DNA from: an uncultured virus (IMG/VR IMGVR_UViG_3300042510_001812)
Taxonomy: Duplodnaviria > Heunggongvirae > Uroviricota > Caudoviricetes
Virus record (IMG/VR): IMGVR_UViG_3300042510_001812
Length of the DNA stretch: 20,000 nucleotides
Direction: 5' to 3' (one strand)
Part shown: piece by piece, positions 323 through 19,999 of the stretch
How positions within the stretch are numbered: the stretch's first letter is position 1
Layout of the letters: each line of letters opens with the position of its first letter
The notes under the pieces: model-generated
Seen by the model: only the letters and a program-made list of their open reading frames with translations
The model's database searches: none
What the model was told of the DNA's origin: nothing
Program-made: the position numbers and the translations under genes

Positions 323-1465
323 ATGGCTGGCTCAGGAATCAGAGTATTCGCTTCTGGAGAAATACTCACCGCAGCACAAGTTAATGGCTACCTCATGGAC
401 CAGGCTGTTGCCCGTTTTGCTGACGCCGGTACGCGTGACGCCTCATTTGGCGGTGCTGGCCAGCCGGTCCTGACAGAGGGCCGTATTTGTTACCTCGATG
501 ATGTCAACTTAATTCAATTTTATGACGGAGCTTCATGGGTCAGCTCCTCCCAGTTTACCGTGGGCGATGGAACAATTACAGAAGCAAAATTAGCTGCGAA
601 CTCCGTAACATCTGACAAAATCGCTCCAGGAACAGTCATTGCAGCCGATATTGCTGCTGGAACGATTACGGCAACGGAACTAGCAGATGGCGCTGTCACG
701 TCAGGAAAGATTCTTGACGGAACTATTGTCAATGCAGATATAAATGCTTCTGCTGCAATTGCATTATCAAAACTAGCCACAAGCACAGCTGGGAACATAA
801 TTGTCTATAACTCTTCAGGTGTACCAACCGCAGTAGCTGAAACTGGAGACGTAACAATCTCGGATACTGGAGTTACCGCAATCGCATCTGGTGTCATTGT
901 TGATGCCGACATCAATTCCTCAGCAGCTATTGCCGATACCAAACTAGCGACAATTTCGACGGCAGGAAAAGTTTCAAACTCTGCGACAACAGCAACAAGC
1001 GCGAATACGAACTCAGCGATTGTCGCTCGTGACGCCAGTGGAAACTTTTCTGCTGGGGCCGTATCAGCAACCAGTGCATCAGTATCAGGAAGATTTGATG
1101 GAACATCAATTAGAGAAGTTGTCTTAGATGCTTCGGTTTCTGCAAGCGTTGTTACAGCAGACTACTCAACTGGTGATATCTTCTATGTTGGTACAGCACC
1201 TTCAAGTAACTTTACGGTGAACCTGACTAATGCACCAACAGACAATGGAAAAGCAATTACGGTCGTTATTTTCGTAACACAGGGTGCAACTGGCTACATA
1301 CCGAATGCTGTTCAAGTTGCTGGAGCTGGTCAGACAATAAAGTGGGCAAATAGTGCCGCACCTGTACCAACATCTTCTGCCGGAAAGATAGACATCTTTT
1401 CATTTACGTTCATACGTCGTAGTTCTGCGTGGACCGTATTTGGTAGCTCAAACCTAGGTTACTAA
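323..1465 (+). CDS. Phage tail fibre / minor tail protein (380 aa)
   Basis: N-terminus (VFASGEILTAAQVNGYLMDQAV..F.....RD...LTEGRICYL....QFYDGASW) of a type common in phage minor tail proteins. Fibre-shaft repeats (GTIT.A.LA.GAVTS.KI.DGTIVNADI). C-terminal beta domain ending IDIFSFTF....W.VFG. Strong SD. Confidence 0.75.
   Translation: MAGSGIRVFASGEILTAAQVNGYLMDQAVARFADAGTRDASFGGAGQPVLTEGRICYLDDVNLIQFYDGASWVSSSQFTVGDGTITEAKLAANSVTSDKIAPGTVIAADIAAGTITATELADGAVTSGKILDGTIVNADINASAAIALSKLATSTAGNIIVYNSSGVPTAVAETGDVTISDTGVTAIASGVIVDADINSSAAIADTKLATISTAGKVSNSATTATSANTNSAIVARDASGNFSAGAVSATSASVSGRFDGTSIREVVLDASVSASVVTADYSTGDIFYVGTAPSSNFTVNLTNAPTDNGKAITVVIFVTQGATGYIPNAVQVAGAGQTIKWANSAAPVPTSSAGKIDIFSFTFIRRSSAWTVFGSSNLGY
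716..913 (+). repeat. 66-codon fibre module, copy 1 (inverted homologue of 18005-18202)
   Basis: DGTIVNADINASAAIALSKLATSTAGNIIVYNSSGVPTAVAETGDVTISDTGVTAIASGVIVDADI. Manual alignment to copy 2 gives 61/66 identical aa and 146/198 identical nt. Confidence 0.92.
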
Positions 1466-1466
1466 T

Positions 1467-2465
1467 ATGCCGTTTTTGGCTTCTGTTTCAGCTAGACAAG
1501 GCGGTTTTTTGCTCGCCAATGCTGCGAAGCTTCCTGCCCCGACATTTGGTGCGTCAACCGGAACTTCAGGCGGCTACACGTTCTCCATATCAAATTACGA
1601 CGCGACAATAACATATTCATTTTCCGTATCAAACGGTGGTAGCGCATCGCAGGTCGGTGGAGCTGTTACGGTAACTGGTCTTGGCAATAACGTCACTGCA
1701 ACATGTACTGTTACCGTCAACAAAAATGGCTGGTTAACAAACTCATCCAGCACAACTGGCACTTCTTTCTCCCAGCTAGCAACTCCGACATTTGGTGCGT
1801 CAACCGGAACTTCAGGCGGCTACACGTTCTCTATTTCAAACTACAGCGCTCTTAATACATATGCATTCTCTGTAACGAATGGAGGAAGCGCTACACAGTC
1901 ATCAGGGACGGTTACTGTTACAGGACTTGCCAACGCAACAACTGCAACATGTACGGTGAATGTAAGTAGAATCGGATTTGTTGCAAACTCAGCCAACACA
2001 ACAGGAACATCATTCTCTCAGCTTGCAACGCCAACATATGGTAGTTATGCCATTGGAGCAGACCCAGGAAGATTTAAGTTTAGAGTTTCTATAGCAAACT
2101 ATGATGCGCTAAACACATACACTGTTAGCGTAAGTGCTGGCTCCTTTACTCGTTCTGCTGCGGCAATCACTGTTACCGGATTGTCGGATAGTCAATCTTC
2201 TACTGTATTTGTAACCGCAAGTCGTTCTGGGTTTGCAACCAGCACTCAGGCTTCAGAAGCATTTTCCGCACCAGGAACTCCATGTACTGCTGGAACCTTC
2301 TTATCTGGGCCTAAGTACTTTAATACATTCGGTGGTGTGGTTAATGGTTGTGCCTATAACGATGTATGCGATGGGAACTATGGCATTGTTCTATCGTTCG
2401 TCAGTGGTCCATGCGCAACATTGAGCGGTGGAGACTACTGTAGTGGATGCTCCCCAGCATACTAG
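1467..2465 (+). CDS. Putative fibre-tip/adhesin protein: three ~82-aa Fn3/Ig-like repeats plus a Cys-rich C-terminal tail (332 aa)
   Basis: Separated from the fibre stop by 1 nt. Repeats PT(F/Y)G...F.ISNYD...Y..SV..G......TVTGL.....T..V.....G(W/F) start at 1539, 1785 and 2031. Six Cys in the last ~60 aa. Confidence 0.7.
   Translation: MPFLASVSARQGGFLLANAAKLPAPTFGASTGTSGGYTFSISNYDATITYSFSVSNGGSASQVGGAVTVTGLGNNVTATCTVTVNKNGWLTNSSSTTGTSFSQLATPTFGASTGTSGGYTFSISNYSALNTYAFSVTNGGSATQSSGTVTVTGLANATTATCTVNVSRIGFVANSANTTGTSFSQLATPTYGSYAIGADPGRFKFRVSIANYDALNTYTVSVSAGSFTRSAAAITVTGLSDSQSSTVFVTASRSGFATSTQASEAFSAPGTPCTAGTFLSGPKYFNTFGGVVNGCAYNDVCDGNYGIVLSFVSGPCATLSGGDYCSGCSPAY
1539..2270 (+). repeat. Intragenic tandem repeat, 246-nt period, 3 units; exact 47-nt duplication at 1539-1585 and 1785-1831
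   Basis: ccgacatttggtgcgtcaaccggaacttcaggcggctacacgttctc occurs twice, 246 nt apart. The third unit (from 2031) is more diverged. Confidence 0.9.
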
Positions 2466-2496: not shown

Positions 2497-2709
2497 ATGA
2501 GCGATAGCAAGCAGGAATTTAAACATTTTGCTTTTGTGGTTGATGGAGTAGTTGTTGAGATAATGTCAATTGCATCTAGTCCAGAGTGGAATAACTTTAA
2601 TGAACTATATTCGTCAAGGCCGACAATCATTGAAGTTCCCGCAAGCCTTGAAGAATTTGGAAAAGGTTATAGGTGGGATGGAGAAAACTTTAGCCCTCCA
2701 ACAGAATAA
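2497..2709 (+). CDS. Small phage protein (70 aa), possibly tail-fibre associated or a chaperone
   Basis: SD AAGGAG at 2486-2491. Pattern FAFVVDGVV...GYRWDGENF.PP resembles small proteins found after phage fibre genes. Confidence 0.6.
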   Translation: MSDSKQEFKHFAFVVDGVVVEIMSIASSPEWNNFNELYSSRPTIIEVPASLEEFGKGYRWDGENFSPPTE

Positions 2710-2933
2710 TGACACCTTGGCAGGAGTATAAGAAGAAACTTGGAGAAACACGTCCCTGGGATGTAGTTAATCTAAAAAACCATACAACAGAAGAAGAAGC
2801 AAATTCTCGACTTGCTGTATGCGAAGTATGTCCAAGCCTGTTAAAACTCACCCACCAATGCAAAGAGTGTGGTTGCTTTATGAAAATCAAAGTTAAATTG
2901 AAAGCCGCAACATGCCCACTAGGTAAGTGGTGA
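2709..2933 (+). CDS. Small Cys-rich putative Zn-binding protein, DUF6171-like (74 aa)
   Basis: RLAVCEVCP...CKECGCFM..K..L..ATCPLGKW. TAATG coupling to the upstream gene. Confidence 0.7.
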   Translation: MTPWQEYKKKLGETRPWDVVNLKNHTTEEEANSRLAVCEVCPSLLKLTHQCKECGCFMKIKVKLKAATCPLGKW

Positions 2934-2977: not shown

Positions 2978-3976
2978 ATGGACACTTATTCTACAAATTG
3001 GAAAAATCAACTAAATAGCAATAATAGAATATTTGTATCAATAGCTTCTTTAAATGAAGAAGACCTGCTAAATACAGTAAAAAATATTTATGAAAAAGCA
3101 GATAATCCAGATGGTGTAAGAATCGGAATTTGCAATCAAAAAACAATTGGAAGTTTTGAAGATTTTTCAAATTTTAAAAATGTAAAAACTATAAATATAA
3201 GCCACCCACTAATTCGTGGGATTGGAATTGCTAGATGTGAATCACTATGGTTGTGGGGCGGTGAGAAATACATCCTTCAGGTTGATGCACACAGCCGATT
3301 TGTCGAATCTTGGGATTCAAAACTTATCAGCTGGTATAAAAAACTTGAATGCATAAACAAGAATATAATTATTTCTCAACGCCCATCTGCTTTCACAAAA
3401 AATAAAAATGGGGTTATTAGTTATGATACGAATCTTCCAAGCGTTGAAAAGTTAAGAGAATTTCAAATTATTGATGCAATAGAAAAATTTACAAATACAA
3501 AATTTTCAAATGAATATCGAACTTCAATTTCATCAAAAATAGAGCATAATTTTATAAGTGAAGATTTCATAGAGCATTATCTTGTTGCTGGTGGATTTAT
3601 ATTTTCAACATGGAAATTCTTTACAGAAGTCATGCCGGACCCGAGAATACAATTTTTCGGAGAAGAGCACACTATCCCGATGAGAGCTTTTTCACGCGGA
3701 TATTCAATCTATGCAATAAACGATATTATTATCCACACCCTTGAAAAAACAGATGAATACCTGGATTCCGATATTGCACGGGATGTTTGGCATAACATCT
3801 TCAATGCAGATATTGCATGCACTACCTATCTACACTTTATTGACTATTATAAGAACATACTTACAGCAGGCGAGCTAGGCTATTATGGGGCCACTGATAT
3901 GGAAACATACAATGAATATGTAGATAAACTGGGATTTGATTATAGGAATATAAGTGGAATTGAGTTTTATGACTGA
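2978..3976 (+). CDS. GT-A glycosyltransferase, [Skp1]-hydroxyproline N-acetylglucosaminyltransferase (Gnt1/GT60, Pfam GlcNAc)-like
   Basis: IFVSIAS...L..TV..IYEKADNP..VRIGICNQ; GIGIAR......GEKYILQVDAHSRF...WD (DxH motif); AGGFIFS...F..EV..DP...FFGEE.....RAF.RGY.IY. Confidence 0.8.
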   Translation: MDTYSTNWKNQLNSNNRIFVSIASLNEEDLLNTVKNIYEKADNPDGVRIGICNQKTIGSFEDFSNFKNVKTINISHPLIRGIGIARCESLWLWGGEKYILQVDAHSRFVESWDSKLISWYKKLECINKNIIISQRPSAFTKNKNGVISYDTNLPSVEKLREFQIIDAIEKFTNTKFSNEYRTSISSKIEHNFISEDFIEHYLVAGGFIFSTWKFFTEVMPDPRIQFFGEEHTIPMRAFSRGYSIYAINDIIIHTLEKTDEYLDSDIARDVWHNIFNADIACTTYLHFIDYYKNILTAGELGYYGATDMETYNEYVDKLGFDYRNISGIEFYD

Positions 3977-4526
3977 AATGATTGGAAGAGACGGCTCTGA
4001 CATATTCCTTTGTAGTGGCTTGTTTGATAAAGAAGAAATAAGAGAAATACTTGATTTCTACATCTTGAATTCTGGTGAAATTCATAACGATGGAAAAATA
4101 TCTGGTGAATTTCAGACTATACAGATATCTGAAAGCAATATAGATATTTCTAAATACGTAATTTCAAAGCTTGAAAAATGTTTGTTTAATATTTTTAGAA
4201 ATACATTTTCCCCAATATCTCTGCCCGACAAGAGGACTTCTATAAAAATTCAGTCAACCGGACAGAGACATCCATTACATAGCGACTCCTCAAAGACAAC
4301 TCATTCCGGGTATAACTATGGAGAGAATCTTGCCTATTCAGGAATTTTATCAATGTCCGATGACTACACGGGAGGCGAGGTTAACTTTCCTGGAGACAAA
4401 GCTTTTGCAAGGCTGGGTGCTGGCGATGCAATTTTTTTCCCATCACAAAAACATATTCACCAAGTAGAAATGGTTGATTCTGGAAAAAGATTTACATTCT
4501 TGACATTTTGGGAAAATTGTGAATAG
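3969..4526 (+). CDS. 2OG-Fe(II) oxygenase, prolyl-4-hydroxylase-like
   Basis: HSD...DDYTGGEVNF...GDAIFFPS...HQVEMVDSGKRFT (HxD..H..R). ATG 3969 gives an 8-nt overlap with the GT stop; the ORF track starts at 3954. Confidence 0.85.
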   Translation: MTEMIGRDGSDIFLCSGLFDKEEIREILDFYILNSGEIHNDGKISGEFQTIQISESNIDISKYVISKLEKCLFNIFRNTFSPISLPDKRTSIKIQSTGQRHPLHSDSSKTTHSGYNYGENLAYSGILSMSDDYTGGEVNFPGDKAFARLGAGDAIFFPSQKHIHQVEMVDSGKRFTFLTFWENCE

Positions 4527-5559
4527 TGATTTACATAATTCAATATTAGATAAATTAAAAAACACACAAATATCAGATGTTCAAATAGACCCATTTGGGT
4601 ATTGCAATGCAAAGTGCTGGTTTTGCCCTGTTAGTACTCATGGGAATATGCTTGACTACTCCAGGCATATGGATGTTGACGTTTTGGAAAATATACTTTT
4701 TGATATTGACTCTGAAAAATCAAAAGATAACGGAATTATTTCGAAAAGATTAAGGCAGATACACACTGCTCACTATAATGAAATTTTACTCTATAAGCAT
4801 TTTGAGGAATTTTTAATTATTCTTTCAAAATTTAAACTTAAAATGCTCATACTTTCAAATGGGGTAAATTTAACCCCAGAAAAAATAGACATTATAAATA
4901 AGTATAAGGATTCAATCAGTGGAATATATTTAAACATTCCAGCTTTTGAAAGAAGCCTGTGGTCGGAAAGAACCGGAATGAACGAGTTTCTTTTTGATTC
5001 ACTAATATCAAACCTGAAATATGCTGAAGCCAACCTCGTATATTTCACACAGAAAAATTCTTTCTCTATCGGTGTGAATTGCCCTACCTATGATTCTCTT
5101 TCTGAAAACGGAGGAATTATATCGAGCTTAAGCAATTTCCCAAATATTGATTTACGTACAACTGATGGGGAACTGGATGTGCAAATAAAACAAGCAAAAC
5201 TTTTATTCCCGTCCTTAAGGTTTCATCCAGAAACAGATTTGTACGATAGGGCAGGACTGTTGCAAGAGTCTTCGATTATTTCAAATTTGCACTTAATTAA
5301 TAAAAACAATAAAAAATACGTAACCGATTGCAGTTATGGTCCAAAAGGTCGAACTTTCGGATGGCTAAACATAAACAGCAAAGCAGAAACATTCTTATGC
5401 TGTAATGATTTTAAATATGAATATGTATTTGGGAATATGCGCGATTCTAAATTAAGTGAGATTTGGTTTAGCGACAAACATGTAAACACCATTAATTCAT
5501 CATTCAGCGAGATATGTACTAGGTGCATACATTCTGTATGGGCGGACCAGCGTGTATAG
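4519..5559 (+). CDS. Radical SAM enzyme with C-terminal SPASM/Twitch domain
   Basis: CNAKCWFC (CxxxCxxC), YNEILL, SNG. C-terminal DC...LCCND...FGNM....LSEIW...ICTRC. Confidence 0.88.
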   Translation: MNSDLHNSILDKLKNTQISDVQIDPFGYCNAKCWFCPVSTHGNMLDYSRHMDVDVLENILFDIDSEKSKDNGIISKRLRQIHTAHYNEILLYKHFEEFLIILSKFKLKMLILSNGVNLTPEKIDIINKYKDSISGIYLNIPAFERSLWSERTGMNEFLFDSLISNLKYAEANLVYFTQKNSFSIGVNCPTYDSLSENGGIISSLSNFPNIDLRTTDGELDVQIKQAKLLFPSLRFHPETDLYDRAGLLQESSIISNLHLINKNNKKYVTDCSYGPKGRTFGWLNINSKAETFLCCNDFKYEYVFGNMRDSKLSEIWFSDKHVNTINSSFSEICTRCIHSVWADQRV

Positions 5560-6406
5560 CGATTCCATATTTTCAACCACATTCGCAGAAATAGTAAAGA
5601 ATATAGATTACTTTGCAGAATTTTATAGAAAAAATGGAATTCTTGTATTTGAAAAGCTCAACGCATCGGAAGAAGAACAATATGAAATACTCTCGCTTCT
5701 TGGAGACAATCTTGGATTTAATCCAAATTCATCAAATAAAAACGAACTTAAAATCTGGCTTCGTTATGAAGAAAATCATTCCAAGTCTCTTGAGCTGAGA
5801 AATCAATTTGGACCTCACCCACTTGATGATGAAATATTAATACATTGGCACTTAGAGCACATAGAAAACGATGTTCCACAGGTTGCTGCTGCTTGGAATA
5901 TGTTGAAGAATAATGTCTCAAGCCCAAATAATGGCTCTACTGGTTTTGTGAGTTGTTCCTCCGAGAATCTCTCCACACCAGATGAATATATTGACTTCTT
6001 GAATCGGGTGGAAATAAAATGCACCGAAAATACCGGGTGGGAGATGGGATGGGATTCCTCGGATAGAAGGGCCGTGATTACTCACGAGGTGACAGGAAAG
6101 AAAATAATTCGCATCTGCCCGCTTGGACACGTTCAGACGGTTGTGTCATTTGACAGTACAGAACCAACCCGTGAGCATCAAGAAATGATGAACAAAATTA
6201 ATTGGTGGTTTCTTGAAAAAATATGGAAAGATAAGTCAATTCAGTTTTGGTGGGAATGGTCTGTTGGTGACCTTGTAATTCCAGATTTAACACAAATGGC
6301 TCATGCTGTAAAAACAGGTTTTAAACATAATCAACGAAATTTTGTTGGGTACTGGGCCTTCGGTGATGGATATGAAAAAAGAATAAAAAATCCACTAAAT
6401 ACCTAA
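5552..6406 (+). CDS. TauD/TfdA (clavaminate-synthase-like) 2OG-Fe(II) dioxygenase
   Basis: GILVF.K, WHLEH (HxE), H.VTGKK, W.WSVGDLVI.D...MAHA...R. Paralogue of 15458-16279. Confidence 0.8.
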   Translation: MYSDSIFSTTFAEIVKNIDYFAEFYRKNGILVFEKLNASEEEQYEILSLLGDNLGFNPNSSNKNELKIWLRYEENHSKSLELRNQFGPHPLDDEILIHWHLEHIENDVPQVAAAWNMLKNNVSSPNNGSTGFVSCSSENLSTPDEYIDFLNRVEIKCTENTGWEMGWDSSDRRAVITHEVTGKKIIRICPLGHVQTVVSFDSTEPTREHQEMMNKINWWFLEKIWKDKSIQFWWEWSVGDLVIPDLTQMAHAVKTGFKHNQRNFVGYWAFGDGYEKRIKNPLNT

Positions 6407-13032: not shown

Positions 13033-13222
13033 TTTCTTTGTCTTCGTCTTTAAACATTGCCACAAGTTGACACATGATTACTGGATTTCCAGCAACATAA
13101 TATATCCCCGTAGCAGAGTCCAGCTCAATCACTTCATTATCCCAATCAGGTAAATCGGTGATTGATTCACCCTTGCGCCTGCTCATATCAGGATTCTTGA
13201 TGTCCTCTTCGTTATTCATCAT
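13025..13222 (-). CDS. Hypothetical acidic protein (65 aa)
   Basis: Fills the gap exactly and overlaps both neighbours. Confidence 0.6.
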   Translation of the reverse strand: MMNNEEDIKNPDMSRRKGESITDLPDWDNEVIELDSATGIYYVAGNPVIMCQLVAMFKDEDKENE

Positions 13223-13436
13223 GATTACCCAATAGTTTATTTAGGGCAATTACTTCTTGGCATAGGACGTTGTATGAATCGAACATTGAATCGCCTTCGT
13301 TGTGCGGATTCTTTTCCTCTGGGTTAAATGAAGAAACGTCAATACCCATAATCATTGAAAGCGTTGCTATTGATTTAGACAAAAAAGCAACTGCTTCATT
13401 GATTGCAATTTTTTCGTCGTATTGTCCAAGTTTCAT
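13212..13436 (-). CDS. Hypothetical protein (~74 aa)
   Basis: ATG 13436 follows GGAG and the upstream TGA; the track starts at 13457. Confidence 0.6.
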   Translation of the reverse strand: MKLGQYDEKIAINEAVAFLSKSIATLSMIMGIDVSSFNPEEKNPHNEGDSMFDSYNVLCQEVIALNKLLGNHDE

Positions 13437-13437
13437 G

Positions 13438-14145
13438 TCACTCCAGGTTTGGCTCATTTAGTTTCGGTAACCCAACAAAAGATGGACCAATCTTATTGCC
13501 ATCAGCGTCCAATCCTGTCCTAATTCCTTTCGTCCATGTCCATGGGTTATCCCTATTGTTGGTCATTTTTAGTTGTCCATATTTCTGCCTGGCATCCATT
13601 AGTTCTGGTTTATCCCATAAGTTTTCCACGATGAATTCAGTATTTTCATGAATAGAGCTATCGAATATTGAAAAGAACATAAATGGCATTCCAGCACTAA
13701 AAGTAACAGGCTCTCCGACCTTGGTAACCATCCAATTCATTTGAAACTCATCTGGCCACCAACTACTTGGAATTATTGCACTGAGTGCGGATGCTCCATC
13801 AACCACGTAATTCGGAGAACCTCCAATCCATGTTTCGTACCCATCTGGTGTTCCAAATGCCCACCCCGTAGAAAACGAAACCATTCCAACTATTCCGCCG
13901 TAGGCGATTTGACGACCCTCATATTCACCGCCAGAAAGAATCGTCGGAACAGTATGCCCGCCATCCCATTGGACGACTACATCTTGTTGAAGTACAAGTT
14001 CCCATCCGTAGACATTTGCGAATGTCATTGGCAAACATTGATAGGCGTGTTTGTTGTGTGTATTATCCATCCACTCTCGCTTAATACGAGATTGTTTTAT
14101 TTCAGGTGGATTCTGCGTTGTTCTTGTAAGGGTAAACTTTGGCAC
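13438..14145 (-). CDS. DUF6065-family protein (235 aa)
   Basis: REWMD.T..KHAYQCLPM..AN.YGWEL, G.VSF..GW.F.TP.GY, GSPN, W.P..F.MNW....G..V.F..G.PF. Family recognised from memory. Confidence 0.7.
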   Translation of the reverse strand: MPKFTLTRTTQNPPEIKQSRIKREWMDNTHNKHAYQCLPMTFANVYGWELVLQQDVVVQWDGGHTVPTILSGGEYEGRQIAYGGIVGMVSFSTGWAFGTPDGYETWIGGSPNYVVDGASALSAIIPSSWWPDEFQMNWMVTKVGEPVTFSAGMPFMFFSIFDSSIHENTEFIVENLWDKPELMDARQKYGQLKMTNNRDNPWTWTKGIRTGLDADGNKIGPSFVGLPKLNEPNLE

Positions 14146-14181: not shown

Positions 14182-14829
14182 TCACCCTTGACCATACATA
14201 TAGTGCTCTGGCTTGTGGGTTCTATCGTTGTAGTCAAACATTGTTACTGCTACATACTTTTTCCCACTTATGATTGGCAAGGATGAATGAGCGTAAATAA
14301 AAGTTGAAGGGAAAAAAACGATGTCTCCGTATTCGGGTTTAATCTTAATATCCAAATAAGGAAACCAAAGCTCCCCACCTTCATACTCATCGTTCAAATA
14401 CATAACTGAGGAAACAGTGCAATTATAAGAAAAACCATGGTCGGTGTGGATTCCAAAATGCTGTCCAACGCCGTAACGAACATAATTAATAGATTCCATG
14501 AATTCCATATTTATGTTGTATCTGCTTTGATAGTCAGCCAAACATTCACGGAGTCCGTGATTTGTGTCATCGTAAATACTTTTTATTTCCAAAAACTGCG
14601 GGGGGCAATCTTGCAAATGTTCAATTCCCATTTTGCAGTCCACACAATCCCTGTACTCTGGCATTTTTACAGCGTCACCCACCAATGCGTCCATCCACAT
14701 ATACGGCGGTAAAGAGCTAGTCCCAATTGTGTTTTCCAAGCGTTCAACCAAATTGAGTTCTTTAGGTAATGCATTTTTGTAAATAATAATGCCCAACTTA
14801 GGGTCGCCTACATGTAGTGAGTGCATCAC
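14182..14829 (-). CDS. 2OG-Fe(II) oxygenase, P4H-like (215 aa)
   Basis: VRYGVGQHFGIHTD, YLNDEYEGGELWF, FPSTFIYAHSSLPIISGKKY. Confidence 0.88.
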   Translation of the reverse strand: MMHSLHVGDPKLGIIIYKNALPKELNLVERLENTIGTSSLPPYMWMDALVGDAVKMPEYRDCVDCKMGIEHLQDCPPQFLEIKSIYDDTNHGLRECLADYQSRYNINMEFMESINYVRYGVGQHFGIHTDHGFSYNCTVSSVMYLNDEYEGGELWFPYLDIKIKPEYGDIVFFPSTFIYAHSSLPIISGKKYVAVTMFDYNDRTHKPEHYMYGQG

Positions 14830-15461
14830 AGAAACTCCTCTATCGTATAAAAAGCTGGAGTGGTAAATCTTTCTCCAGATGTAACCATACTAACTCCATG
14901 GAGGTAGTTTATGTCTCCTGGGTGAAAAACGGCAAGACCAGGTTTTGGTTTAATCACCATATCGTGTTGGGGGTAGTAAAGTTCACCACCAGTAAAATCT
15001 TCATTATAATAAAACAATGCATTTATATCGTAATCAGTAAAAGGGTTGGGCGAACCATCGGGGAGTTGTTTGTCGGCGTGGGGCTCCTGTTGTATGCCGG
15101 TAAACCATCTAATTATGCATGGGGGCCTAGTGGACACAACACAATTAAACGTCTCGTTTATTACCTTGCCCATCTTCTCGATATAGGAATCAATCAATTC
15201 ATATATTTCTGGGTTTATTTTCTGTAGAATGTCATAACCGCATTGACGGTCGTTCCAATAATTTGCATCGTACAGACATGTTCCGTCCTCTGCGTATATG
15301 CTTGTTGGTTCTTGGTTTGACCATTCCTTTATAGACCTTGCAAATAAATTTATTTTAGAAACATCTTCAGGGTCTATAAAATCTTCTATTACGTGGATAT
15401 TTTCTTTACTTGAACCAAAAAATCCAGGTTTAACTCCCCATGGAGATGTGTCGCTGTTCAT
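14826..15461 (-). CDS. 2OG-Fe(II) oxygenase, P4H-like (211 aa)
   Basis: QEPHAD, YYNEDFTGGELYY, HPGD..YLHGVSMVTSGERFT. Confidence 0.88.
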   Translation of the reverse strand: MNSDTSPWGVKPGFFGSSKENIHVIEDFIDPEDVSKINLFARSIKEWSNQEPTSIYAEDGTCLYDANYWNDRQCGYDILQKINPEIYELIDSYIEKMGKVINETFNCVVSTRPPCIIRWFTGIQQEPHADKQLPDGSPNPFTDYDINALFYYNEDFTGGELYYPQHDMVIKPKPGLAVFHPGDINYLHGVSMVTSGERFTTPAFYTIEEFL

Positions 15462-16279
15462 TGAGGTACTTTACCAAATATCCCAATAAATTCACGTTCG
15501 TGTGGCTCAAACCCACCAAGTACAGCATGACACATTCTAAACAGGTCTATTATCAAGAGGTCCCCTGGGGACCATGCCCAACCCTTAATGTAGCCACTGC
15601 CCGGGAGAAGAAGATTTTCAAATTTCTTTTGAATTTGTATATATCTAGATATTTCGGTGATGCTTGGCTTTCTTCCATCAAACGACACTAATTTCTCAAC
15701 GATATATGCTGGGTCAATCCTTATCAGCTCTGAATTGTTTGTTTTATTTATTCTTATCGGGGAACGATAGTTTTTATCTTCTTCATTTTTGTGATTAGTA
15801 ATCACTAAACATTTTTTTAAAAAATCAATTTCCTCTTCATTGAATGCATGCATTGTCTCCTGCCCATCACAGAACAACGTTATTCCATTTGATTTATCGC
15901 AATCAAACTTAGTCATATTCCAACATGATGCTGCTGTTTCAATGTTGTTCTCAATGTGCTCGTAGTGCCAGCTCACGAGAATATTATGTCTTGAAACCTT
16001 GCCAGACTCTCTACTTATTGAGAGATTGTGGTTTTCTCTATATCCACCAAGGTTCGGAACGATGTCAAAATTTTTACAGAATAATTTAAATATTTCTTTT
16101 TGTTCTTCTTCGCTTACACTCGCTTCTTTAAAACCAATAAAACCTTCTATCTTGAATTTTTCAAAGTAAAAGTTTTTATTTAGTTTTATAGAATCTGCAT
16201 TTTGTCCCGTAGTCGCGTCGAACAATGCAATGTCGCCCAACTCGTAATGAGGCTGCTCCAAGTAAGAGATGTTACCCAT
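15458..16279 (-). CDS. TauD/TfdA-like 2OG-Fe(II) dioxygenase
   Basis: WHYEH (HxE), G.TLFCD, WAWSPGDLLIIDL..MCHAV.GGF...ER. Start taken at ATG 16279; the track starts at 16288. Confidence 0.8.
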   Translation of the reverse strand: MGNISYLEQPHYELGDIALFDATTGQNADSIKLNKNFYFEKFKIEGFIGFKEASVSEEEQKEIFKLFCKNFDIVPNLGGYRENHNLSISRESGKVSRHNILVSWHYEHIENNIETAASCWNMTKFDCDKSNGITLFCDGQETMHAFNEEEIDFLKKCLVITNHKNEEDKNYRSPIRINKTNNSELIRIDPAYIVEKLVSFDGRKPSITEISRYIQIQKKFENLLLPGSGYIKGWAWSPGDLLIIDLFRMCHAVLGGFEPHEREFIGIFGKVPQ

Positions 16280-17018
16280 TATTACCACTAATTACGTAAA
16301 ACATGGATTTATGCTTCCCGAGTCTACTGCTAGGTTTATTTTTCTCTATTGCTTCAATTTCATTTTTTTCCATTGCCCTGTAATGACCGAACAACACATC
16401 CCTGCCTTTGGCCCATTCATCAGCAGGGCTTCCCCTATGCATTAGGTTCCCATGCCAAATCAAAACATCTCCTTTGTGTGGAATAAAAACAAATGGCTCA
16501 ATTCCTTTTGTCTTAATTAATTCATTATTGTACTCGCAGCACTGTTGTGGATTGCTTTTGCAATTTTCCCAGTTTATAATTTCTGAATTTTTTAGCCACT
16601 TATGAGACTTTGGTATCAACTGAAATGGACCGCAACCTTCATCAACGTCGCTCATGGCTATGTGCACACCGATGTAACCATTTGCACCAATTGCATTTTT
16701 TTCTAAATAGTCGGTGTGCCAGTCTGTTCCTGATGTACCTATTCTTGCCTCTGATATGTGTAGGGCAAAATATTTGTTTAAATGTGAGACTACCGAACTT
16801 ACTTCATCCCCGCAAAGCATCTCTAGTATTTCTTGACTTCTGAGGTATTCGTTGCGCTCAATGTATGTTTCGTATGATGTTTTTTCTTTTCCAAGAACTA
16901 CATGTTTTGGTTTATATTTACCCATGAATGCATCTATTTTATTTTCAGGAATCAACCCATTAATTACGGCGAATCCATTTTCCCAATATTGACTGATTGA
17001 ATATTGGTCAGCATTCAC
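16272..17018 (-). CDS. Phytanoyl-CoA dioxygenase (PhyH)-family 2OG-Fe(II) oxygenase
   Basis: Y.ENGFAVI.GLI, WHTD, GP.QLIPKSHKW, KGDVLIWHGNLMHRGS......R. Confidence 0.85.
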   Translation of the reverse strand: MNADQYSISQYWENGFAVINGLIPENKIDAFMGKYKPKHVVLGKEKTSYETYIERNEYLRSQEILEMLCGDEVSSVVSHLNKYFALHISEARIGTSGTDWHTDYLEKNAIGANGYIGVHIAMSDVDEGCGPFQLIPKSHKWLKNSEIINWENCKSNPQQCCEYNNELIKTKGIEPFVFIPHKGDVLIWHGNLMHRGSPADEWAKGRDVLFGHYRAMEKNEIEAIEKNKPSSRLGKHKSMFYVISGNNG

Positions 17019-17031: not shown

Positions 17032-17032
17032 A

Positions 17033-17659
17033 TCACTTAAATCTTGGAGGAAAGTACGGCGGAAAGTATGGCGGGAAGTACGGGGGGGCAACTGGGGTTA
17101 CTGCGGTTGAATATGCCGAAAAGTCACTGACGCCATATACGCTTTCCGCCCTGACTCTAAATTGGTATGCAACTCCATTTGTAAGACCAGTAAAACTTAT
17201 GCTGCTAGCGTTTACTACAGTTTTCTCACTAGTGAATGGAGACGATTGAACCCTAAAAGTAACAGCGGTAGCTGCGGCCGTTCCGTTGCTGCCCTTTGTC
17301 CAGTTTACGGTGGCTGCGGCGTTGCCCGCAGCTGAAACACCAATTGTTGGGGTTGCAGGTTTGATTCCAGGTGTTATGGATGTTGATGATGACGACGCAT
17401 TTGACTCGACGCCATTTGATGAGATGGATGTGACAGTAAAAGTAACAGCAGTTCCAGCAGTTGTGGTTATTGCAATTGGTGAACTTCCCCCAGTTGCGGT
17501 TTCACCAGTGCTAGCGTTTATGCGATAACTAATCGTACCTTTTCCAGTATATGTTGGGCCAGTAAATGGAACCGAGGAGATACCAGTTCCGCTGTCAAAT
17601 GATGGCGTACCAATCGTTGGTACTCCTGGAATTTTACCGCCTGAATCTTTTGTTGCCAT
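17033..17659 (-). CDS. Putative fibre-tip protein: two Fn3 domains plus a C-terminal (PPYF)3-PPRFK tail (208 aa)
   Basis: PGVPTIG...SSPI....TFTVT....NG..S..SS.S.SITP and P.TPTIG...AGN..ATVNW...TGLTNGVAYQFRVRA...YG.S..S..S.AVTP. Separated from the fibre stop by 3 nt. Confidence 0.8.
   Translation of the reverse strand: MATKDSGGKIPGVPTIGTPSFDSGTGISSVPFTGPTYTGKGTISYRINASTGETATGGSSPIAITTTAGTAVTFTVTSISSNGVESNASSSSTSITPGIKPATPTIGVSAAGNAAATVNWTKGSNGTAAATAVTFRVQSSPFTSEKTVVNASSISFTGLTNGVAYQFRVRAESVYGVSDFSAYSTAVTPVAPPYFPPYFPPYFPPRFK
17036..17086 (-). repeat. 12-nt coding tandem repeat encoding PPYF x3 + PPRFK
   Basis: Minus strand: ccc ccg tac ttc / ccg cca tac ttt / ccg ccg tac ttt / cct cca aga ttt aag. 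Confidence 0.92.
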
Positions 17660-17662
17660 AAG

Positions 17663-19999
17663 TTATGCCGAAACGTCTCCCACCAATACCCATGTATCGG
17701 TTGCTCTCTTGATGAGCGTAGCATATGACCACTGTGCTCGTAGTTTAAGCCCTGGTGATGCATTGATTGTTACTCCAGCCCCAGCAGTAACCGTTGTTCG
17801 ACCAACTCCTGTTTGCAGGATGTTTATCTGCGAACCAACCGGGAAAGCTACTGATGAGTTTGGCGGCACTGTCAGTGTATGGGCACCGCTGTCACCCATT
17901 TCAACAATCTTATTCTTGTCAGCCAACACAAGCGTGTAATAGCTCGGTTGAGCATTCGTTGATACGTCGGCGAGCTTTCCTAGGTCAATTTCGGCAGAAG
18001 CGCTTATATCAGCATTTACGATGACGCCAGAAGCGATAGATGTTACACCCGTATCGGAAATTGTCACATCGCCAGTCTCCGCGACAGATGTAGGAACTCC
18101 AGAAGAGTTGTAAACGATGATGTTTCCAGCAGTGCTTGTCGCAAGCTTGCTTAAGGCAATCGCTGCAGAAGAATCGATATCAGCATTAACGATGGTTCCA
18201 TCAGCAATCATTGTGCTTGTTATGGTTCCAGACGGGGCACTAAATGTTCCAGTGAAGGATGCATTATTTACTGGAGCGTAGAAAGAACCGCTCTGCCCAT
18301 CTAGAAGGTCGGCATTGAGGTTTGTTACTACTGTGCTTGAAGAAACACTTAATGGGGCTGTTCCTGTTGCCACCGTACTCTCAAACACTTCTGCAACAAC
18401 TGGTGCTGCTGAATAACTGGCATGAGCAGTATTGATTGGGTCAGCTGGTTCTATCTCGTAGGAATCAAAGAACTTAAACTTTCCGTCAGTTGCATCTCTG
18501 AAAAGACCAGCATGACGATACGTTCCGTCATTGTAATTACCCACCCAACCAAGGTCTGGGTTTGTGATTGTTGAGCCATCGTTAAGATAAATAAACGTGT
18601 CTTCAATTGCAAGGTTTGTTTCATTGATGGTTGTGAGAGTTCCGTGAACACTAAGGTCTCCACCAACAATCAAGTTGCCAGTCGTTTCAACTTGAGAAAA
18701 AGTTACAGAAGCGCTTGTTGCTACTGATTGTCCAATCGCTATTGTTGGCGTTGAGGTCTCCCCAGTCCCACCAGTAACCGTCACTCCGGTTCCGGCGGTT
18801 ATTACGCTCACATAGTCGCCACTCGTATCAGCACCAAGTGCAACAGAGTTCGAAGCAATGGTTGCGGTTAGTGTTGCATTTCCGAGATTAGTAAATGTTG
18901 CAGAGCCGCTAAGGTCGCCGCCAAGGGTTATTACTGGAGACGCAGTTGCACTTGCTTTGTTGTCCAACTGTGTTTGGATTGAAGATGTTACTCCGTCAAC
19001 ATAATTTAATTCTGTTGCAGTAGCAGTTACTCCAGTAAGGTCTGTAGGAGCAATAGAAATGTCTGCTGAACCATTAAATGGTTGACCAGCAATGTTGCGG
19101 GCGGTTTGAAGAGTTGTTGCAGTCGAGGCATTGCCAATCAGCGGCGCTGTAACGGCAGCAAATTGCACTGACGACGATGTCCCTACAGCCTGACCAATAG
19201 CGATTGTTGGGGTAGCTGTTTCTCCGGAGTTATTGGTAAGGGTTACGCCTGTTCCAGCAACGAGCGACGCAACATAGTCACCAGTGGTTTTTGTGCCCAG
19301 GGCAACCGTGTTGTCCGGGAGCGTTACTACTCCAGTAAAAGTTGGAGAAGCTGAGTTCGCTTTTGCTGCAAGTAAAGCCGAATCATTTACCCACTGTGTA
19401 CCAGACCACTTGAGAATATCTCCAGATGCTGCTGATGTAATTGCTACGTCACCAATAACACCAAGTGAAGTAATAGCAGCCCCATCAACAGCTGTTTTTA
19501 CAAATGCCGTAGTAGCAATTTGCGTGGTGTTGGTTCCGGACGTAGCCGTTGGGGCCGTCGGTGTGCCGGTCAAATCCGGAGAACTCAATGGTGCTTTTGC
19601 ATTTAATTGTGTTTGTATTGCAGAAGTTGTTCCGTTTAGATATCCAATTTCTGTATCAGAAACATCAGCAACTCGTGCCTGAATTACTGTTGTATCAACT
19701 GACAGCACGTTTGATACAAGATTAATTCCACTTCCATTGGTTAGTGTCTGTGCTGCATTAAACGGTGTGTATGTGATGTTGTCAGTCCCAATAGCAATTG
19801 GATTCGTAGCGCTATTGTTTACAAATCCAAAACCAGCATTTGTTGACCCACCAGTTACGAAGCAGAAGTCGCCAGTCTTCATTTCTCCTGCAGGGTTATT
19901 GTCAGCGTCTGTTGCTCTTGTGACTACCCAAGGAGCGCTAACACTGCCGACATCCGTAACTGTGTAGATACCGTTTTCTTTAGAATCAGTCTGGGCCTT
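17663..19999 (-). CDS. Long phage tail fibre protein, 5' part outside the window
   Basis: The frame stays open upstream of the track start (KAQTDSKENGIYTV...WVVTRATDAD...G.FCFV.GG..N, a common fibre motif). Also APLSSP.LTGTPTAPTA..GTNTTQIATTAFV, GNASTATTLQTAR.I.G..FNGSADI, NLNADLLDG and C-terminal YTLVLAD...AFPVG...LRAQWS.ATLIKRATDTWVLVGD. Confidence 0.85.
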   Translation of the reverse strand, partial: KAQTDSKENGIYTVTDVGSVSAPWVVTRATDADNNPAGEMKTGDFCFVTGGSTNAGFGFVNNSATNPIAIGTDNITYTPFNAAQTLTNGSGINLVSNVLSVDTTVIQARVADVSDTEIGYLNGTTSAIQTQLNAKAPLSSPDLTGTPTAPTATSGTNTTQIATTAFVKTAVDGAAITSLGVIGDVAITSAASGDILKWSGTQWVNDSALLAAKANSASPTFTGVVTLPDNTVALGTKTTGDYVASLVAGTGVTLTNNSGETATPTIAIGQAVGTSSSVQFAAVTAPLIGNASTATTLQTARNIAGQPFNGSADISIAPTDLTGVTATATELNYVDGVTSSIQTQLDNKASATASPVITLGGDLSGSATFTNLGNATLTATIASNSVALGADTSGDYVSVITAGTGVTVTGGTGETSTPTIAIGQSVATSASVTFSQVETTGNLIVGGDLSVHGTLTTINETNLAIEDTFIYLNDGSTITNPDLGWVGNYNDGTYRHAGLFRDATDGKFKFFDSYEIEPADPINTAHASYSAAPVVAEVFESTVATGTAPLSVSSSTVVTNLNADLLDGQSGSFYAPVNNASFTGTFSAPSGTITSTMIADGTIVNADIDSSAAIALSKLATSTAGNIIVYNSSGVPTSVAETGDVTISDTGVTSIASGVIVNADISASAEIDLGKLADVSTNAQPSYYTLVLADKNKIVEMGDSGAHTLTVPPNSSVAFPVGSQINILQTGVGRTTVTAGAGVTINASPGLKLRAQWSYATLIKRATDTWVLVGDVSA
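18005..18202 (-). repeat. 66-codon fibre module, copy 2 (inverted homologue of 716-913)
   Basis: DGTIVNADIDSSAAIALSKLATSTAGNIIVYNSSGVPTSVAETGDVTISDTGVTSIASGVIVNADI. Confidence 0.92.

What the first reader, a model, noticed from the sequence alone, without database searches (positions are those of the whole stretch)
323..19999. Two convergent 'fibre - tip protein with peptide tail - tailoring enzymes' cassettes: candidate RiPP-like modification system for virion proteins
Seen: both strands show the same order of fibre gene, abutting Fn3/Ig-like gene ending in a compositionally odd tail, then coupled modifying enzymes. The enzyme set tracks the tail chemistry: the 6-Cys tail sits with a radical SAM/SPASM enzyme, and the Pro/Tyr/Phe tail sits with a large battery of hydroxylases. 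Known: P4H-like oxygenases, SPASM radical SAMs and Gnt1-type GTs include many peptide- or protein-modifying enzymes. No NRPS/PKS, sugar-nucleotide or nucleotide-pathway gene here supplies an alternative small-molecule substrate. Inference: the tip proteins act as precursors whose C-terminal 'core peptides' are chemically elaborated and displayed on the virion, for host recognition, adhesion, metal binding or protection. I know of no characterised system of this layout.
Basis: partly seen in the sequence, partly recalled or inferred. Interest (0 to 1): 0.92.

Follow-up and report, generated by a model that had tools for sequence, protein, structure and literature searches.

The report
Phage fibre-tip stalks beside hydroxylase island
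An uncultured lake phage keeps a 14-kb block of protein-hydroxylase-like and other tailoring enzymes between two tail-fibre tip genes, one ending in Pro-Pro-Tyr-Phe repeats, which gives a testable candidate target for phage oxygenases whose role is unknown.

Summary
The gene layout is real.

Pro tail and hydroxylases: strongly linked. Among 76 distinct proteins ending in (PPxF)n, 70 have a prolyl-4-hydroxylase-like gene within the next three genes. All seven such enzymes here keep the iron and 2-oxoglutarate residues.

Cys tail and radical SAM: weak. The Cys end is a roughly 60-residue knob that travels with the two small genes. Three related genomes carry such knobs but no radical SAM homologue. 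This enzyme family also occurs in replication modules of other phages.

The convergent two-tip layout recurs in four more distinct relatives, so it is not an accident of this genome.

It is not a RiPP system. It looks like tailoring of fibre-tip stalks, and in two relatives the repeat is followed by a self-cleaving fibre chaperone domain.

No chemistry has been shown. Most loci come from one phage lineage, so the counts are not independent.

Earlier notes of this scan reached a similar reading on other windows, one of them on this same phage.

The parts
323..1465 (+). tail-fibre-like protein (380 aa)
   Evidence: PHROG tail-fibre and minor-tail hits, 1e-5 to 1e-6. Homologues at 45-88% identity precede Cys-knob tips in relatives.
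1467..2465 (+). tip protein (332 aa): three ~95-aa repeats and a Cys-rich end
   Evidence: Translation. No Pfam or PHROG hit. Homologues found in 8 loci.
2274..2462 (+). Cys-rich C-terminal knob (6 Cys in ~60 residues)
   Evidence: Related knobs carry a GGYNGAYR-like motif and sit on Pro-rich stalks in relatives.
2497..2709 (+). 70-aa protein ('s70') that follows Cys-knob tips
   Evidence: It follows 9 of 38 Cys-ended proteins and 0 of 76 PPxF-ended proteins. Also seen.
2709..2933 (+). DUF6171 (74 aa, CxxC...CxxC)
   Evidence: Pfam E 9.7e-7, PHROG_13558 E 3e-17. A virus-only family in the Atlas. It travels with Cys knobs.
2978..3976 (+). GT60/Gnt1-type glycosyltransferase
   Evidence: PF11397 E 2e-30. 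The family acts on hydroxyproline of Skp1 (PMC6939170 passages).
3954..4526 (+). P4H-like 2OG oxygenase (190 aa)
   Evidence: PF13640 24.7 bits, PHROG_61 E 7e-11. HxD..H plus R kept.
4519..5559 (+). radical SAM enzyme with SPASM-type end
   Evidence: Pfam. CX3CX2C motif. The only match in solved structures is BtrN, E 1.7e-4 over 32 residues. NCBIfam hits lie far below their cut-offs.
5552..6406 (+). TauD-family oxygenase
   Evidence: PF02668 E 1.2e-8.
6395..8040 (-). two P4H-like oxygenases (260 and 288 aa)
   Evidence: PF13640 at 36.9 and 50.4 bits. Catalytic triad kept.
8037..9850 (-). class I methyltransferase and AurF-like diiron protein
   Evidence: Pfam. Two ExxH motifs. The pair is conserved in L153/L154 and L170-175.
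9893..12019 (-). three 2OG oxygenases (284, 204 and 227 aa)
   Evidence: PF13640 and PF13759..
12000..12746 (-). 248-aa protein with a catechol/CCoA O-methyltransferase-like fold
   Evidence: Model pLDDT 83.5. The top 50 chains are all of this O-methyltransferase family, Z 15.3-13.2. Present in 23 of 29 islands.
12739..13457 (-). three small ORFs (108, 65 and 81 aa)
   Evidence: The s81 and s108 families occur in 21 and 19 of 29 islands. No family hit.
13438..14145 (-). DUF6065, dUTPase fold, invariant Cys37
   Evidence: Pfam E 2.3e-42. Z 10.7 to dUTPases. Alignment A1. Present in 29 of 29 islands (about a third of the loci behind this count were found by searching with DUF6065).
14182..15461 (-). 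the two most conserved P4H-like oxygenases (215 and 211 aa)
   Evidence: 57-87% identical in relatives. Closest solved structures are the B. anthracis and PBCV-1 prolyl 4-hydroxylases.
15458..17018 (-). TauD-family and PhyH-family oxygenases
   Evidence: Pfam.
17033..17659 (-). Fn3 tip protein (208 aa) with the Pro/aromatic tail
   Evidence: fn3 E 2.7e-7. Translation. 116 relatives found in IMG/VR.
17036..17089 (-). tail APPYFPPYFPPYFPPRFK (4 PPxF units)
   Evidence: Relatives have 6-35 units. The only such stretch in the 160-kb genome.
17663..19999 (-). tail fibre (C-terminal 778 of 1113 aa)
   Evidence: PHROG tail-fibre hits, 1e-12 to 1e-18.

Best explanation
This is a changeable enzyme island of a lake myovirus lineage. 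It probably tailors the Pro-rich stalks of the small tip proteins encoded at both of its ends.

Shown:
- The island is bracketed by fibre-plus-tip modules.
- The (PPxF)n stalk is conserved at the protein level.
- P4H-type oxygenases with intact active-site residues follow it almost everywhere.
- In some relatives the stalk is followed by a self-cleaving fibre chaperone domain (Peptidase_S74). That cleavage would leave the same ...FK end as in this phage.

Inferred:
- During late infection the P4H-like enzymes hydroxylate prolines of the stalk.
- Other oxygenases and the catechol-O-methyltransferase-like protein may add and cap further hydroxyl groups, possibly on Tyr or Phe.
- The GT60-type transferase next to a P4H adds a sugar to hydroxyproline, as in the Skp1 pathway.
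- The result would be a stiffer, more stable or stickier stalk on the virion.

The Cys-rich end of the other tip is a small folded knob. It is served by the 70-aa protein and DUF6171, and it is not a core peptide for the radical SAM enzyme. That enzyme is an accessory member of the island. It travels with P4H-like genes (7 of 19 distinct proteins) and GT60 genes (4 of 19), and its substrate is open.
For: Searching from DUF6065, which is blind to the tail:
- 52 of 63 loci carry a (xPxF)n>=3 coding stretch upstream on the same strand.
- 9 of the 11 misses have 3.4 kb or less of upstream sequence.
- In L141 the upstream space is filled by 9 P4H genes. L149 is a true exception.

Searching from the repeat pattern in IMG/VR, which is blind to the enzymes:
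- 66 distinct repeat proteins were found; 50 have a P4H-like gene within 6 kb downstream and 3 more only upstream.
- Only 9 of the 66 have a tip-like N-terminus, so the stalk sits on varied domains.
- Of the 10 remaining no-P4H cases tested, 4 have PF13640 genes elsewhere on the contig. The other 6 are fragments estimated 5-31% complete.

The same pattern in prokaryote genome and MAG contigs:
- 7 of 28 loci hold P4H-like genes, and these are the loci with real tails. The other 21 hold none.

Pooled table:
- PPxF-ended proteins, n=76: P4H within the next 3 genes in 70, within 6 kb in 74.
- Cys-ended proteins, n=32: P4H within the next 3 genes in 4.
- P4H genes lie downstream in 66 of 67 cases and upstream in 2 of 67.

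Other evidence:
- In 5 genomes every PF13640 gene is clustered right after the tip gene.
- 1632 repeat units average 8.1 distinct DNA forms but only 2.6 peptide forms per protein, which indicates selection on the peptide.
- Peptidase_S74 follows the stalk directly in L117 and L137, E 6e-11 and 2e-11.
- All 7 P4H-like proteins keep HxD..H and R/K.
- The closest solved relatives are peptidyl P4Hs.
- GT60 acts on hydroxyproline (PMC6939170 passages).
- G003 has the tip, a degenerate tail and a short island but no terminase match to this phage. This hints that the module moves between lineages.
- Glycans on virion protein C-termini are a known precedent in mycobacteriophages (Freeman 2023, seen only as cited in PMC12619734).
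Against: - No chemistry has been shown for any of these proteins.
- In PBCV-1, the one virus with a characterised P4H, hydroxyproline was not found in virions (PMC7019647 passages).
- This phage's tail has only 18 residues and 8 prolines, against about 17 enzymes. P4H number does not scale with repeat number (rho -0.22, p 0.30, 25 clusters).
- Most loci belong to one lineage: the terminase is 81-84% identical in 4 of 5 near-complete genomes. Counts and Fisher tests are therefore not independent events.
- An island that always sits at a fibre-module boundary would give the same adjacency.
- The seeds were partly biased. PPYFPPYF was one of the seed patterns, and DUF6065 was the seed.
- 16 of 66 pattern-seeded repeat proteins have no P4H within 6 kb downstream. 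L149 has an island without a tail.
- Cyanophage S-SCSM2R mixes the same enzyme classes (2OG, GTs, rSAM, sulfotransferase) far from fibre genes.
- Islands of relatives also hold carbamoyltransferase, fatty-acid desaturase and cyclopropane-synthase-like genes.
- The tip protein has not been shown to be in the virion.
Confidence: 0.55

Rival explanations
1. The island is a small-molecule or host-metabolism cluster: secondary-metabolite tailoring, free amino-acid hydroxylation or drawdown of 2-oxoglutarate. It sits beside the tip genes only because fibre-module boundaries are where these phages accept new genes.
For: - Iyer et al. 2010 read the Syn9 tandem dioxygenase array, which also has a dUTPase-fold protein with a conserved Cys, as metabolite biosynthesis (PMC2938197 passages).
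- DUF6065 has that fold and an invariant Cys.
- Sullivan et al. 2010 proposed control of 2OG level and DNA repair (PMC3037559 passages).
- TauD, PhyH, AurF-like and catechol-OMT-like families are common in small-molecule pathways.
- Carbamoyltransferase, desaturase and CMAS genes occur in islands of relatives.
- The cyanophage island is not next to fibres.
- There is no scaling of enzymes with repeats.
Against: - The window has no scaffold-building enzyme.
- Enzymes lie downstream in 66 of 67 cases and upstream in 2 of 67.
- The link holds when the stalk sits on unrelated N-terminal domains.
- In G001, G002 and G003 the island is embedded between fibre modules, not at an operon end.
- The closest solved relatives are peptidyl P4Hs.
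- GT60 members characterised so far act on polypeptides.
Confidence: 0.25
2. One reading: two matched RiPP-like cassettes, in which the radical SAM/SPASM enzyme cross-links the six-Cys tail and the hydroxylases work on the Pro tail.
For: - In 4 of 11 groups of rSAM homologues the gene lies just after a Cys-knob Fn3 tip: this phage, L154, L156-159 and L160.
- SPASM enzymes include Cys-peptide maturases. This phage's rSAM has weak NCBIfam hits to such maturases.
Against: - Those 4 groups share one lineage and one layout.
- G001, G002 and G003 have Cys knobs with s70/DUF6171 but no rSAM homologue.
- L086-88 keep the same Cys tail at 72% identity with no rSAM or GT in the following genes.
- In L170-175 the rSAM lies in mid-island. 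Elsewhere it lies next to an RNR-like protein with RecA, DnaB and primase further downstream, to PolB, or to crAss-like structural genes.
- NCBIfam scores are 15-37 bits against cut-offs of 250-500.
- The only match in solved structures is BtrN, a small-molecule dehydrogenase.
- The 'tail' looks like a ~60-residue knob on a stalk.
Confidence: 0.1
3. The enzymes modify something else on or around the particle rather than the short tip stalks. Candidates are the large fibres, other virion proteins, or host surface components during infection.
For: - About 17 enzymes face an 18-residue tail.
- One further P4H-like gene lies elsewhere in the genome.
- Glutathione-peroxidase-like and sulfotransferase genes in islands of relatives suggest wider chemistry.
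Against: - The only element that recurs with the enzymes across varied proteins is the Pro-rich stalk.
- The 160-kb genome has no other PPxF stretch.
Confidence: 0.1

Closest known systems
Tandem dioxygenase array of Synechococcus phage Syn9 (Iyer, Abhiman, de Souza & Aravind 2010, PMC2938197; passages read)
   Same: Many unlike 2OG dioxygenases in tandem in a phage, together with a dUTPase-fold protein that has a conserved Cys. Here that protein is DUF6065 (Z 10.7, invariant C37).
   Different: No tryptophan halogenase or JmjC member was found in the window. Here the array is bracketed by fibre-tip genes with Pro-rich stalks. Iyer et al. proposed metabolite synthesis and named no protein substrate. 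DUF6065 has no tblastn match in GenBank phages at E<=1e-3.
Chlorovirus PBCV-1 prolyl 4-hydroxylase with the virus's Pro-rich repeat proteins (Eriksson 1999, recalled and seen as cited; PMC7019647 passages; PDB 5c5t)
   Same: A virus-encoded peptidyl-P4H-type enzyme and virus-encoded Pro-rich repeats. 2OG_215 matches 5c5t at E 9e-4 and the B. anthracis P4H at 7e-8.
   Different: PBCV-1 has one enzyme, not a battery, with no gene linkage to a tip protein. Hydroxyproline was not detected in PBCV-1 virions.
Skp1 prolyl hydroxylation and GlcNAc pathway (PhyA then Gnt1, GT60; PMC6939170 passages)
   Same: A P4H-type gene overlapping a PF11397/GT60 gene (2978-4526). GT60 and P4H-like genes lie within two genes of each other for 6 of 13 distinct GT60-like proteins.
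   Different: The Skp1 pathway is a eukaryotic cytoplasmic oxygen sensor with one target proline. Here the acceptor is unknown.
Glycosylated C-termini of mycobacteriophage capsid and tail-tube proteins (Freeman et al. 2023, seen only as cited in PMC12619734)
   Same: Phage-encoded enzymes modify C-terminal extensions of the phage's own virion proteins.
   Different: There the enzymes are glycosyltransferases only, and the modification was shown by experiment. Here it is an oxygenase-rich battery with no data.
Hydroxyproline-rich glycoproteins (extensin-type SPPP repeats) and collagen P4H (established knowledge; PMC11015965 seen in a search listing only)
   Same: Pro-rich extended stalks made by P4H and glycosyltransferases. 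Some relatives have SPPP or poly-Pro stalks before the Cys knob.
   Different: The repeat has no Gly-X-Y period, so it is not collagen. The PPxF unit with two aromatic residues has no described counterpart: no paper in the library holds these strings.

Membership tests
RiPP biosynthetic system | Short precursor peptide with a leader and a core | tested here: not met
   The candidate substrates are 208- and 332-aa proteins with Fn3 or repeat domains. The apparent 75-95-aa 'mini' forms in relatives are ORF-calling artefacts.
RiPP biosynthetic system | Leader protease, exporter or RRE/PqqD-like recognition domain in the cluster | tested here: not met
   None was found among the 27 window proteins by Pfam, PHROGs or NCBIfam.
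Peptidyl prolyl 4-hydroxylase type 2OG oxygenases (PF13640) | HxD...H iron triad and a basic 2OG-binding residue | tested here: met
   7 of 7 paralogues keep them. 4 of the 7 score above the Pfam cut-off and 3 just below it.
Peptidyl prolyl 4-hydroxylase type 2OG oxygenases (PF13640) | Hydroxylates proline in a peptide | not testable with these tools
   There is only homology to the solved B. anthracis and PBCV-1 enzymes.
GT60 / Gnt1 polypeptide GlcNAc-transferases (PF11397) | Match to the family profile | tested here: met
   E 2e-30, 106.9 bits against a cut-off of 21, covering model positions 97-267 of 352.
GT60 / Gnt1 polypeptide GlcNAc-transferases (PF11397) | Transfers a sugar to hydroxyproline or Thr of a protein | not testable with these tools
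   There is no solved relative by sequence.
Radical SAM / SPASM peptide maturases | CX3CX2C cluster motif and a SPASM domain | tested here: met
   C29-X3-C33-X2-C36. SPASM scores 35 bits against a cut-off of 21.5.
Radical SAM / SPASM peptide maturases | Membership of a characterised maturase family | tested here: not met
   The best NCBIfam scores are 15-37 bits against cut-offs of 250-500. The only PDB match is BtrN, over 32 residues.
Radical SAM / SPASM peptide maturases | Consistent pairing with a Cys-rich substrate gene | tested here: inconclusive
   A Cys-knob tip lies next to the rSAM in 4 of 11 homologue groups. Cys knobs occur without the rSAM in G001, G002, G003 and L086-88.
Syn9-type phage dioxygenase array (Iyer 2010) | Several unlike 2OG dioxygenases in tandem | tested here: met
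   11 2OG-type genes from 4 Pfam families in 14.5 kb.
Syn9-type phage dioxygenase array (Iyer 2010) | dUTPase-fold protein with a conserved Cys | tested here: met
   DUF6065 model at Z 10.7, with 13 chains at Z>=8 that are nearly all dUTPases (one is a herpesvirus tegument protein, pp71). C37 is invariant in 26 sequences.
Syn9-type phage dioxygenase array (Iyer 2010) | Tryptophan halogenases and a JmjC/MINA member | tested here: not met
   Neither is in the window. A JmjC gene was seen only in L180.
Collagen-like triple helix | Gly at every third residue | tested here: not met
   The repeat is PP[F/Y/H]F. Gly fills 19 of 1632 variable positions.
Fibre proteins with a C-terminal intramolecular chaperone (Peptidase_S74) | S74 domain directly after the fibre part | tested here: not met
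   It is absent from the window's tip protein. It is present in relatives L117 and L137, E 6e-11 and 2e-11, right after ...PPxFK.

The most novel reading that the evidence does not exclude
Lake phages build their fibre tips on a previously undescribed Pro-Pro-aromatic-Phe stalk. Their own enzyme battery converts it into a hydroxyproline-rich stalk, possibly also aromatic-hydroxylated, O-methylated and glycosylated. This would be a viral counterpart of extensin or mussel-adhesive chemistry. It would also be the first natural substrate for the large 2OG-oxygenase expansions of phages, cyanophages included.
Probability: 0.35. Interest if true: 0.85.

Novelty: new variant of a known kind. Interest (0 to 1): 0.72.

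Why it matters
Phage genomes, above all those of cyanophages, carry up to 24 2OG-Fe(II) oxygenase genes. [quoted passage not shown]

This finding links such a battery to a defined, conserved and simple peptide that can be made and tested. If the link holds, there are three consequences.
- Phages would be shown to tailor their own receptor-side proteins with eukaryote-like hydroxyproline chemistry.
- A set of regio-specific peptide hydroxylases would become available.
- These genes would move from 'auxiliary metabolic' to virion maturation.

The phage is uncultured and comes from lake water, so the first tests must be heterologous.

Tried and rejected
No match:
- Megablast of the window against GenBank phages.
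- tblastn of the tip protein, DUF6065 and the rSAM against GenBank phages.
- PDB sequence searches for the GT, TauD_276 and PhyH proteins. The AurF-like protein gave only weak diiron or helix-bundle matches.

Complex prediction (2OG_211 alignment, tip residues 165-208, Fe): no verdict, score 0.02. Six earlier hand-ins met a full queue.

The look-up of sequencing runs: no RNA holder listed.

Ideas dropped:
- 'The convergent layout is an accidental inversion in this genome.' G001 and G002 have it too.
- 'Relatives encode 75-95-aa stand-alone repeat peptides.' The frame is conserved about 45 codons further upstream and is homologous to the L142 N-terminus.
- 'The stalk is collagen-like.' It has no Gly period.
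- 'Enzyme number scales with repeat number.' rho -0.22.

Weak or empty results:
- A Hint/intein-like domain after the stalk in L219, L251 and L273 has only sub-threshold Pfam support, and only in L273 (9e-5); there is none in the other two.
- The promoter and terminator scan found no more sites than shuffles.
- No earlier notes for this genome by place.
- Literature: no paper holds the repeat strings or DUF6065/DUF6171. A search for hydroxyproline in phage virions gave 2 papers, judged from the listing alone to be unrelated.

Full report
**What the window is**

The window is G000:C1:4694-24693 (minus strand) of a 68,955-bp IMG/VR record that CheckV rates 46% complete. An identical, complete 160,449-bp genome with terminal repeats is also held, as G005. 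The rest of the record encodes tail sheath, tube, baseplate, portal and terminase, so this is a myovirus. Lake-water metagenomes from many studies hold the sequence.

**Check of the observation**

ORF, Pfam and PHROG results confirm the layout.

On the + strand:
- A fibre-like gene (323-1465) is followed after 1 nt by a 332-aa gene (1467-2465).
- That protein has three internal repeats and 6 Cys in its last ~60 residues. Pfam does not recognise it as Fn3 or Ig.
- Four overlapping enzyme genes come next: GT PF11397 (E 2e-30), a P4H-like 2OG oxygenase, a radical SAM/SPASM enzyme with CX3CX2C, and a TauD-family oxygenase.

On the - strand:
- A 1113-aa fibre is followed after 3 nt by a 208-aa Fn3 protein ending APPYFPPYFPPYFPPRFK.
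- After 14 nt come 18 genes: nine 2OG-type oxygenases, an AurF-like diiron protein, a methyltransferase, DUF6065, a 248-aa protein and three small ORFs.

All seven PF13640-type proteins keep HxD..H and the basic 2OG-binding residue. The enzyme genes are lower in G+C (0.32-0.43) than the structural genes (0.47-0.51). This may only reflect the Ala/Gly/Thr-rich fibres. Contigs from 3 of 4 other lake runs bridge the tail with no difference.

**The Pro/aromatic tail is a conserved, modular stalk**

- Of 116 IMG/VR relatives of the tip protein, 80 loci were kept. Nearly all end in much longer (PP[F/Y]F)n...PPxFK tails. One seed pattern was the tail itself, so this set is biased.
In the 79 loci read there are 66 distinct repeat proteins, and only 9 have a tip-like N-terminus.
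- The repeat either ends the protein or is followed by an Fn3 domain, a Cys-rich knob or, in L117 and L137, a Peptidase_S74 intramolecular chaperone (E 6e-11 and 2e-11).
- That chaperone starts right after ...PPxFK. From established knowledge of the S74 family, such domains fold trimeric fibres and then cut themselves off at their first Ser. Cleavage would leave the same ...FK end seen here. This is inferred, not shown.
- Across 1632 units in 136 distinct proteins there are on average 8.1 DNA forms but 2.6 peptide forms per protein. The variable position is F in 1015 units, Y in 433 and H in 77. The peptide is therefore under selection.
- This phage's tail, at 4 units, is among the shortest seen; relatives have up to 35. 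It is the only such stretch in the 160-kb genome.

**Link to the hydroxylases**

- I built an HMM from the window's P4H-like paralogues and their relatives. It hits only the PF13640-type proteins of the window.
- Among 67 distinct tail proteins from the first two seed sets, 66 have at least one P4H-like gene within 10 kb downstream. The single miss has only 520 bp of downstream sequence. Only 2 have one upstream.
- From DUF6065 seeds, 52 of 63 loci carry the tail-coding stretch upstream. Of the two misses with long upstream DNA, L141 is filled by nine P4H genes and L149 is a real exception.
- From pattern seeds, 50 of 66 have P4H downstream within 6 kb and 3 more only upstream.
- Of the 10 no-P4H cases tested, 4 have PF13640 genes elsewhere on the contig and 6 are fragments estimated 5-31% complete.
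- In prokaryote genome and MAG contigs the same pattern gave 28 loci. The 7 with P4H-like genes are those with real tails, and the other 21 have none.
- In five genomes every PF13640 gene lies in one cluster right after the tip gene, with 1 to 14 copies.
- Islands after 29 non-redundant PPxF-ended tips hold: P4H 29, DUF6065 29, the 248-aa family 23, s81 21, s108 19, PF13759 11, TauD 7, PhyH 4, AurF-like 2, MT 2, rSAM 0, GT60 0.
- P4H number (3-10, median 6) does not follow repeat number.

**The unknown core members**

- DUF6065 folds as a dUTPase-like barrel: pLDDT 77, and Z up to 10.7 with 13 chains at Z>=8 that are nearly all dUTPases, against Z<=5.1 for unrelated rows. It has an invariant Cys37.
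- The 248-aa protein is a class I methyltransferase fold. Its 50 best matches are all cation-dependent catechol/caffeoyl-CoA-type O-methyltransferases: Z 15.3-13.2, about 195 residues aligned, rmsd about 4.3. A shared fold does not prove function, but 'hydroxylate, then O-methylate' fits.

**The Cys side**

- The Cys-rich end is a roughly 60-residue module found on several tip proteins. It often follows a Pro-rich stalk: poly-Pro, SPPP, PT repeats, APPTF x4 or PPFF x6.
- It is followed by the 70-aa family and then DUF6171. s70 follows 9 of 38 Cys-ended proteins against 0 of 76 PPxF-ended ones. That Cys-ended set also holds unrelated bacterial ORFs.
- The rSAM is within 6 kb of only 3 of the 38.
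- G001, G002 and G003 have such knobs but no rSAM homologue.
- L086-88 keep the same tail at 72% identity, followed by small genes and the next fibre.
- rSAM homologues at 40-62% identity fall into 11 groups. Four groups follow Cys-knob tips, all with the same lineage-type layout. One group sits in mid-island (L170-175). The others lie next to an RNR-like protein with RecA, DnaB and primase further downstream, to PolB, or to crAss-like structural genes.
- Within two genes of the 19 distinct rSAM proteins there are P4H in 7, GT60 in 4, TauD in 4 and DUF6171 in 3.
- The only match in solved structures is BtrN. NCBIfam maturase hits lie far below their cut-offs.
- I therefore read the rSAM as an accessory island enzyme with an open substrate, not as the partner of the six cysteines.

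**The layout as a whole**

I first took the convergent arrangement for an inversion, because in L086-92 the two tip modules are collinear. G001 and G002 changed that view.
- G001 has a second, convergent cassette at the far end of its island: fibre, then a 339-aa protein with APPTF x4 and a Cys knob, then s70, DUF6171, P4H, GT60, P4H and PhyH.
- G002 has fibre, then an Fn3 tip with PPFF x6 and a Cys knob, then a 75-aa gene and DUF6171.
- L154 and L156-159 show the same order.

So 'tip with stalk, island, and in the opposite direction DUF6171, s70, tip with knob' recurs in five distinct genomes while the enzyme content turns over. On the Cys side, GT60 plus P4H is present in 5 of 6 cases and the rSAM in 3 of 6.

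**Limits**

- Four of five near-complete relatives share a terminase at 81-84% identity, and G017 at 67%. Most counts therefore repeat one ancestry.
- G003 (94% complete) has the module but no terminase match, which hints at transfer.
- No chemistry exists. In PBCV-1 hydroxyproline was not found in virions.
- A cultured cyanophage mixes the same enzyme classes far from fibre genes.
- Islands of relatives also hold glutathione-peroxidase-like, sulfotransferase, Asp/Asn-hydroxylase, carbamoyltransferase, desaturase and CMAS genes.

**Prior knowledge and novelty**

- The roles of phage 2OG oxygenases are unsettled (PMC3037559; PMC9602691).
- Iyer et al. proposed metabolite synthesis for the Syn9 array. 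They noted bacterial hydroxylase operons that also encode tail-collar-family and collagen-like proteins.
- No paper in the library holds the repeat strings or the two DUF names.
- Earlier AI notes of this scan describe the same pairing on other windows, one on this same phage. I tested their claims myself, and they led me to the Iyer paper.
- I rate the finding a new variant of a known kind: virus-encoded tailoring of the virus's own proteins, as with the PBCV-1 P4H and mycobacteriophage virion glycosylation.

Noticed in passing
L100, L102, L117, L126, L137 (e.g. L126:5380-5850): The small stalk proteins have a conserved body of about 45 codons upstream of the first start codon. This body is homologous to the L142 N-terminus (38% identity, E 2e-12). 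It is preceded by a Met-initiated ORF of about 25 codons in another frame. This points to a conserved frameshift or an unusual start.
   Followed up: partly
relatives: L117:9398-9997 and 13467-14093, L154:14182-14799, L156:14383-14994, L170:589-1212 and 11885-12505, L016:15090-15722: Glutathione-peroxidase-like (PF00255) genes recur inside the oxygenase islands of relatives but are absent from this window. They may protect against peroxide from uncoupled oxygenase turnover.
   Followed up: no
L273:5509-6750 (-), L219:3762-5138, L251:5470-6810 (-): In some phages the stalk is followed by a C-terminal domain that begins with Cys and looks Hint/intein-like. Pfam support is sub-threshold, and only in L273 (9e-5). 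This may be another self-processing end.
   Followed up: partly
L052, L053, L055, L059, L060 (ORF 1-885), L066:549-1595: Fn3 proteins with extensin-like SPPP or PAPT repeats run into a short Cys-rich end (for example ...CGICCGGC...).
   Followed up: no
G000:C1:51671-62362 (L003:7672-18363): A 3563-aa protein sits next to the portal gene. It has head-maturation-protease, helicase and anti-restriction-like parts.
   Followed up: no
G000:C1:40849-43323 (L002:16550-19024, - strand): Two ParB-like genes flank a PAPS-reductase-like gene between the neck and replication genes. This may be a DNA-modification module.
   Followed up: no
window 6395-6406: The two convergent enzyme blocks end in overlapping stop regions, with no terminator-like site between them.
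   Followed up: partly
L040:17359-20266 (G001): A cyclopropane-fatty-acid-synthase-like methyltransferase, an Asp/Asn beta-hydroxylase-type gene and a fatty-acid desaturase lie in the same island. These are lipid-type enzymes among protein-type ones.
   Followed up: no
L334 (Synechococcus phage S-SCSM2R 228299-236332): A cultured cyanophage has a run of 2OG oxygenase, four GTs, an aminotransferase-like gene, a radical SAM maturase and an amidinotransferase near psbA. The enzyme classes are similar, but no fibre gene is nearby.
   Followed up: no
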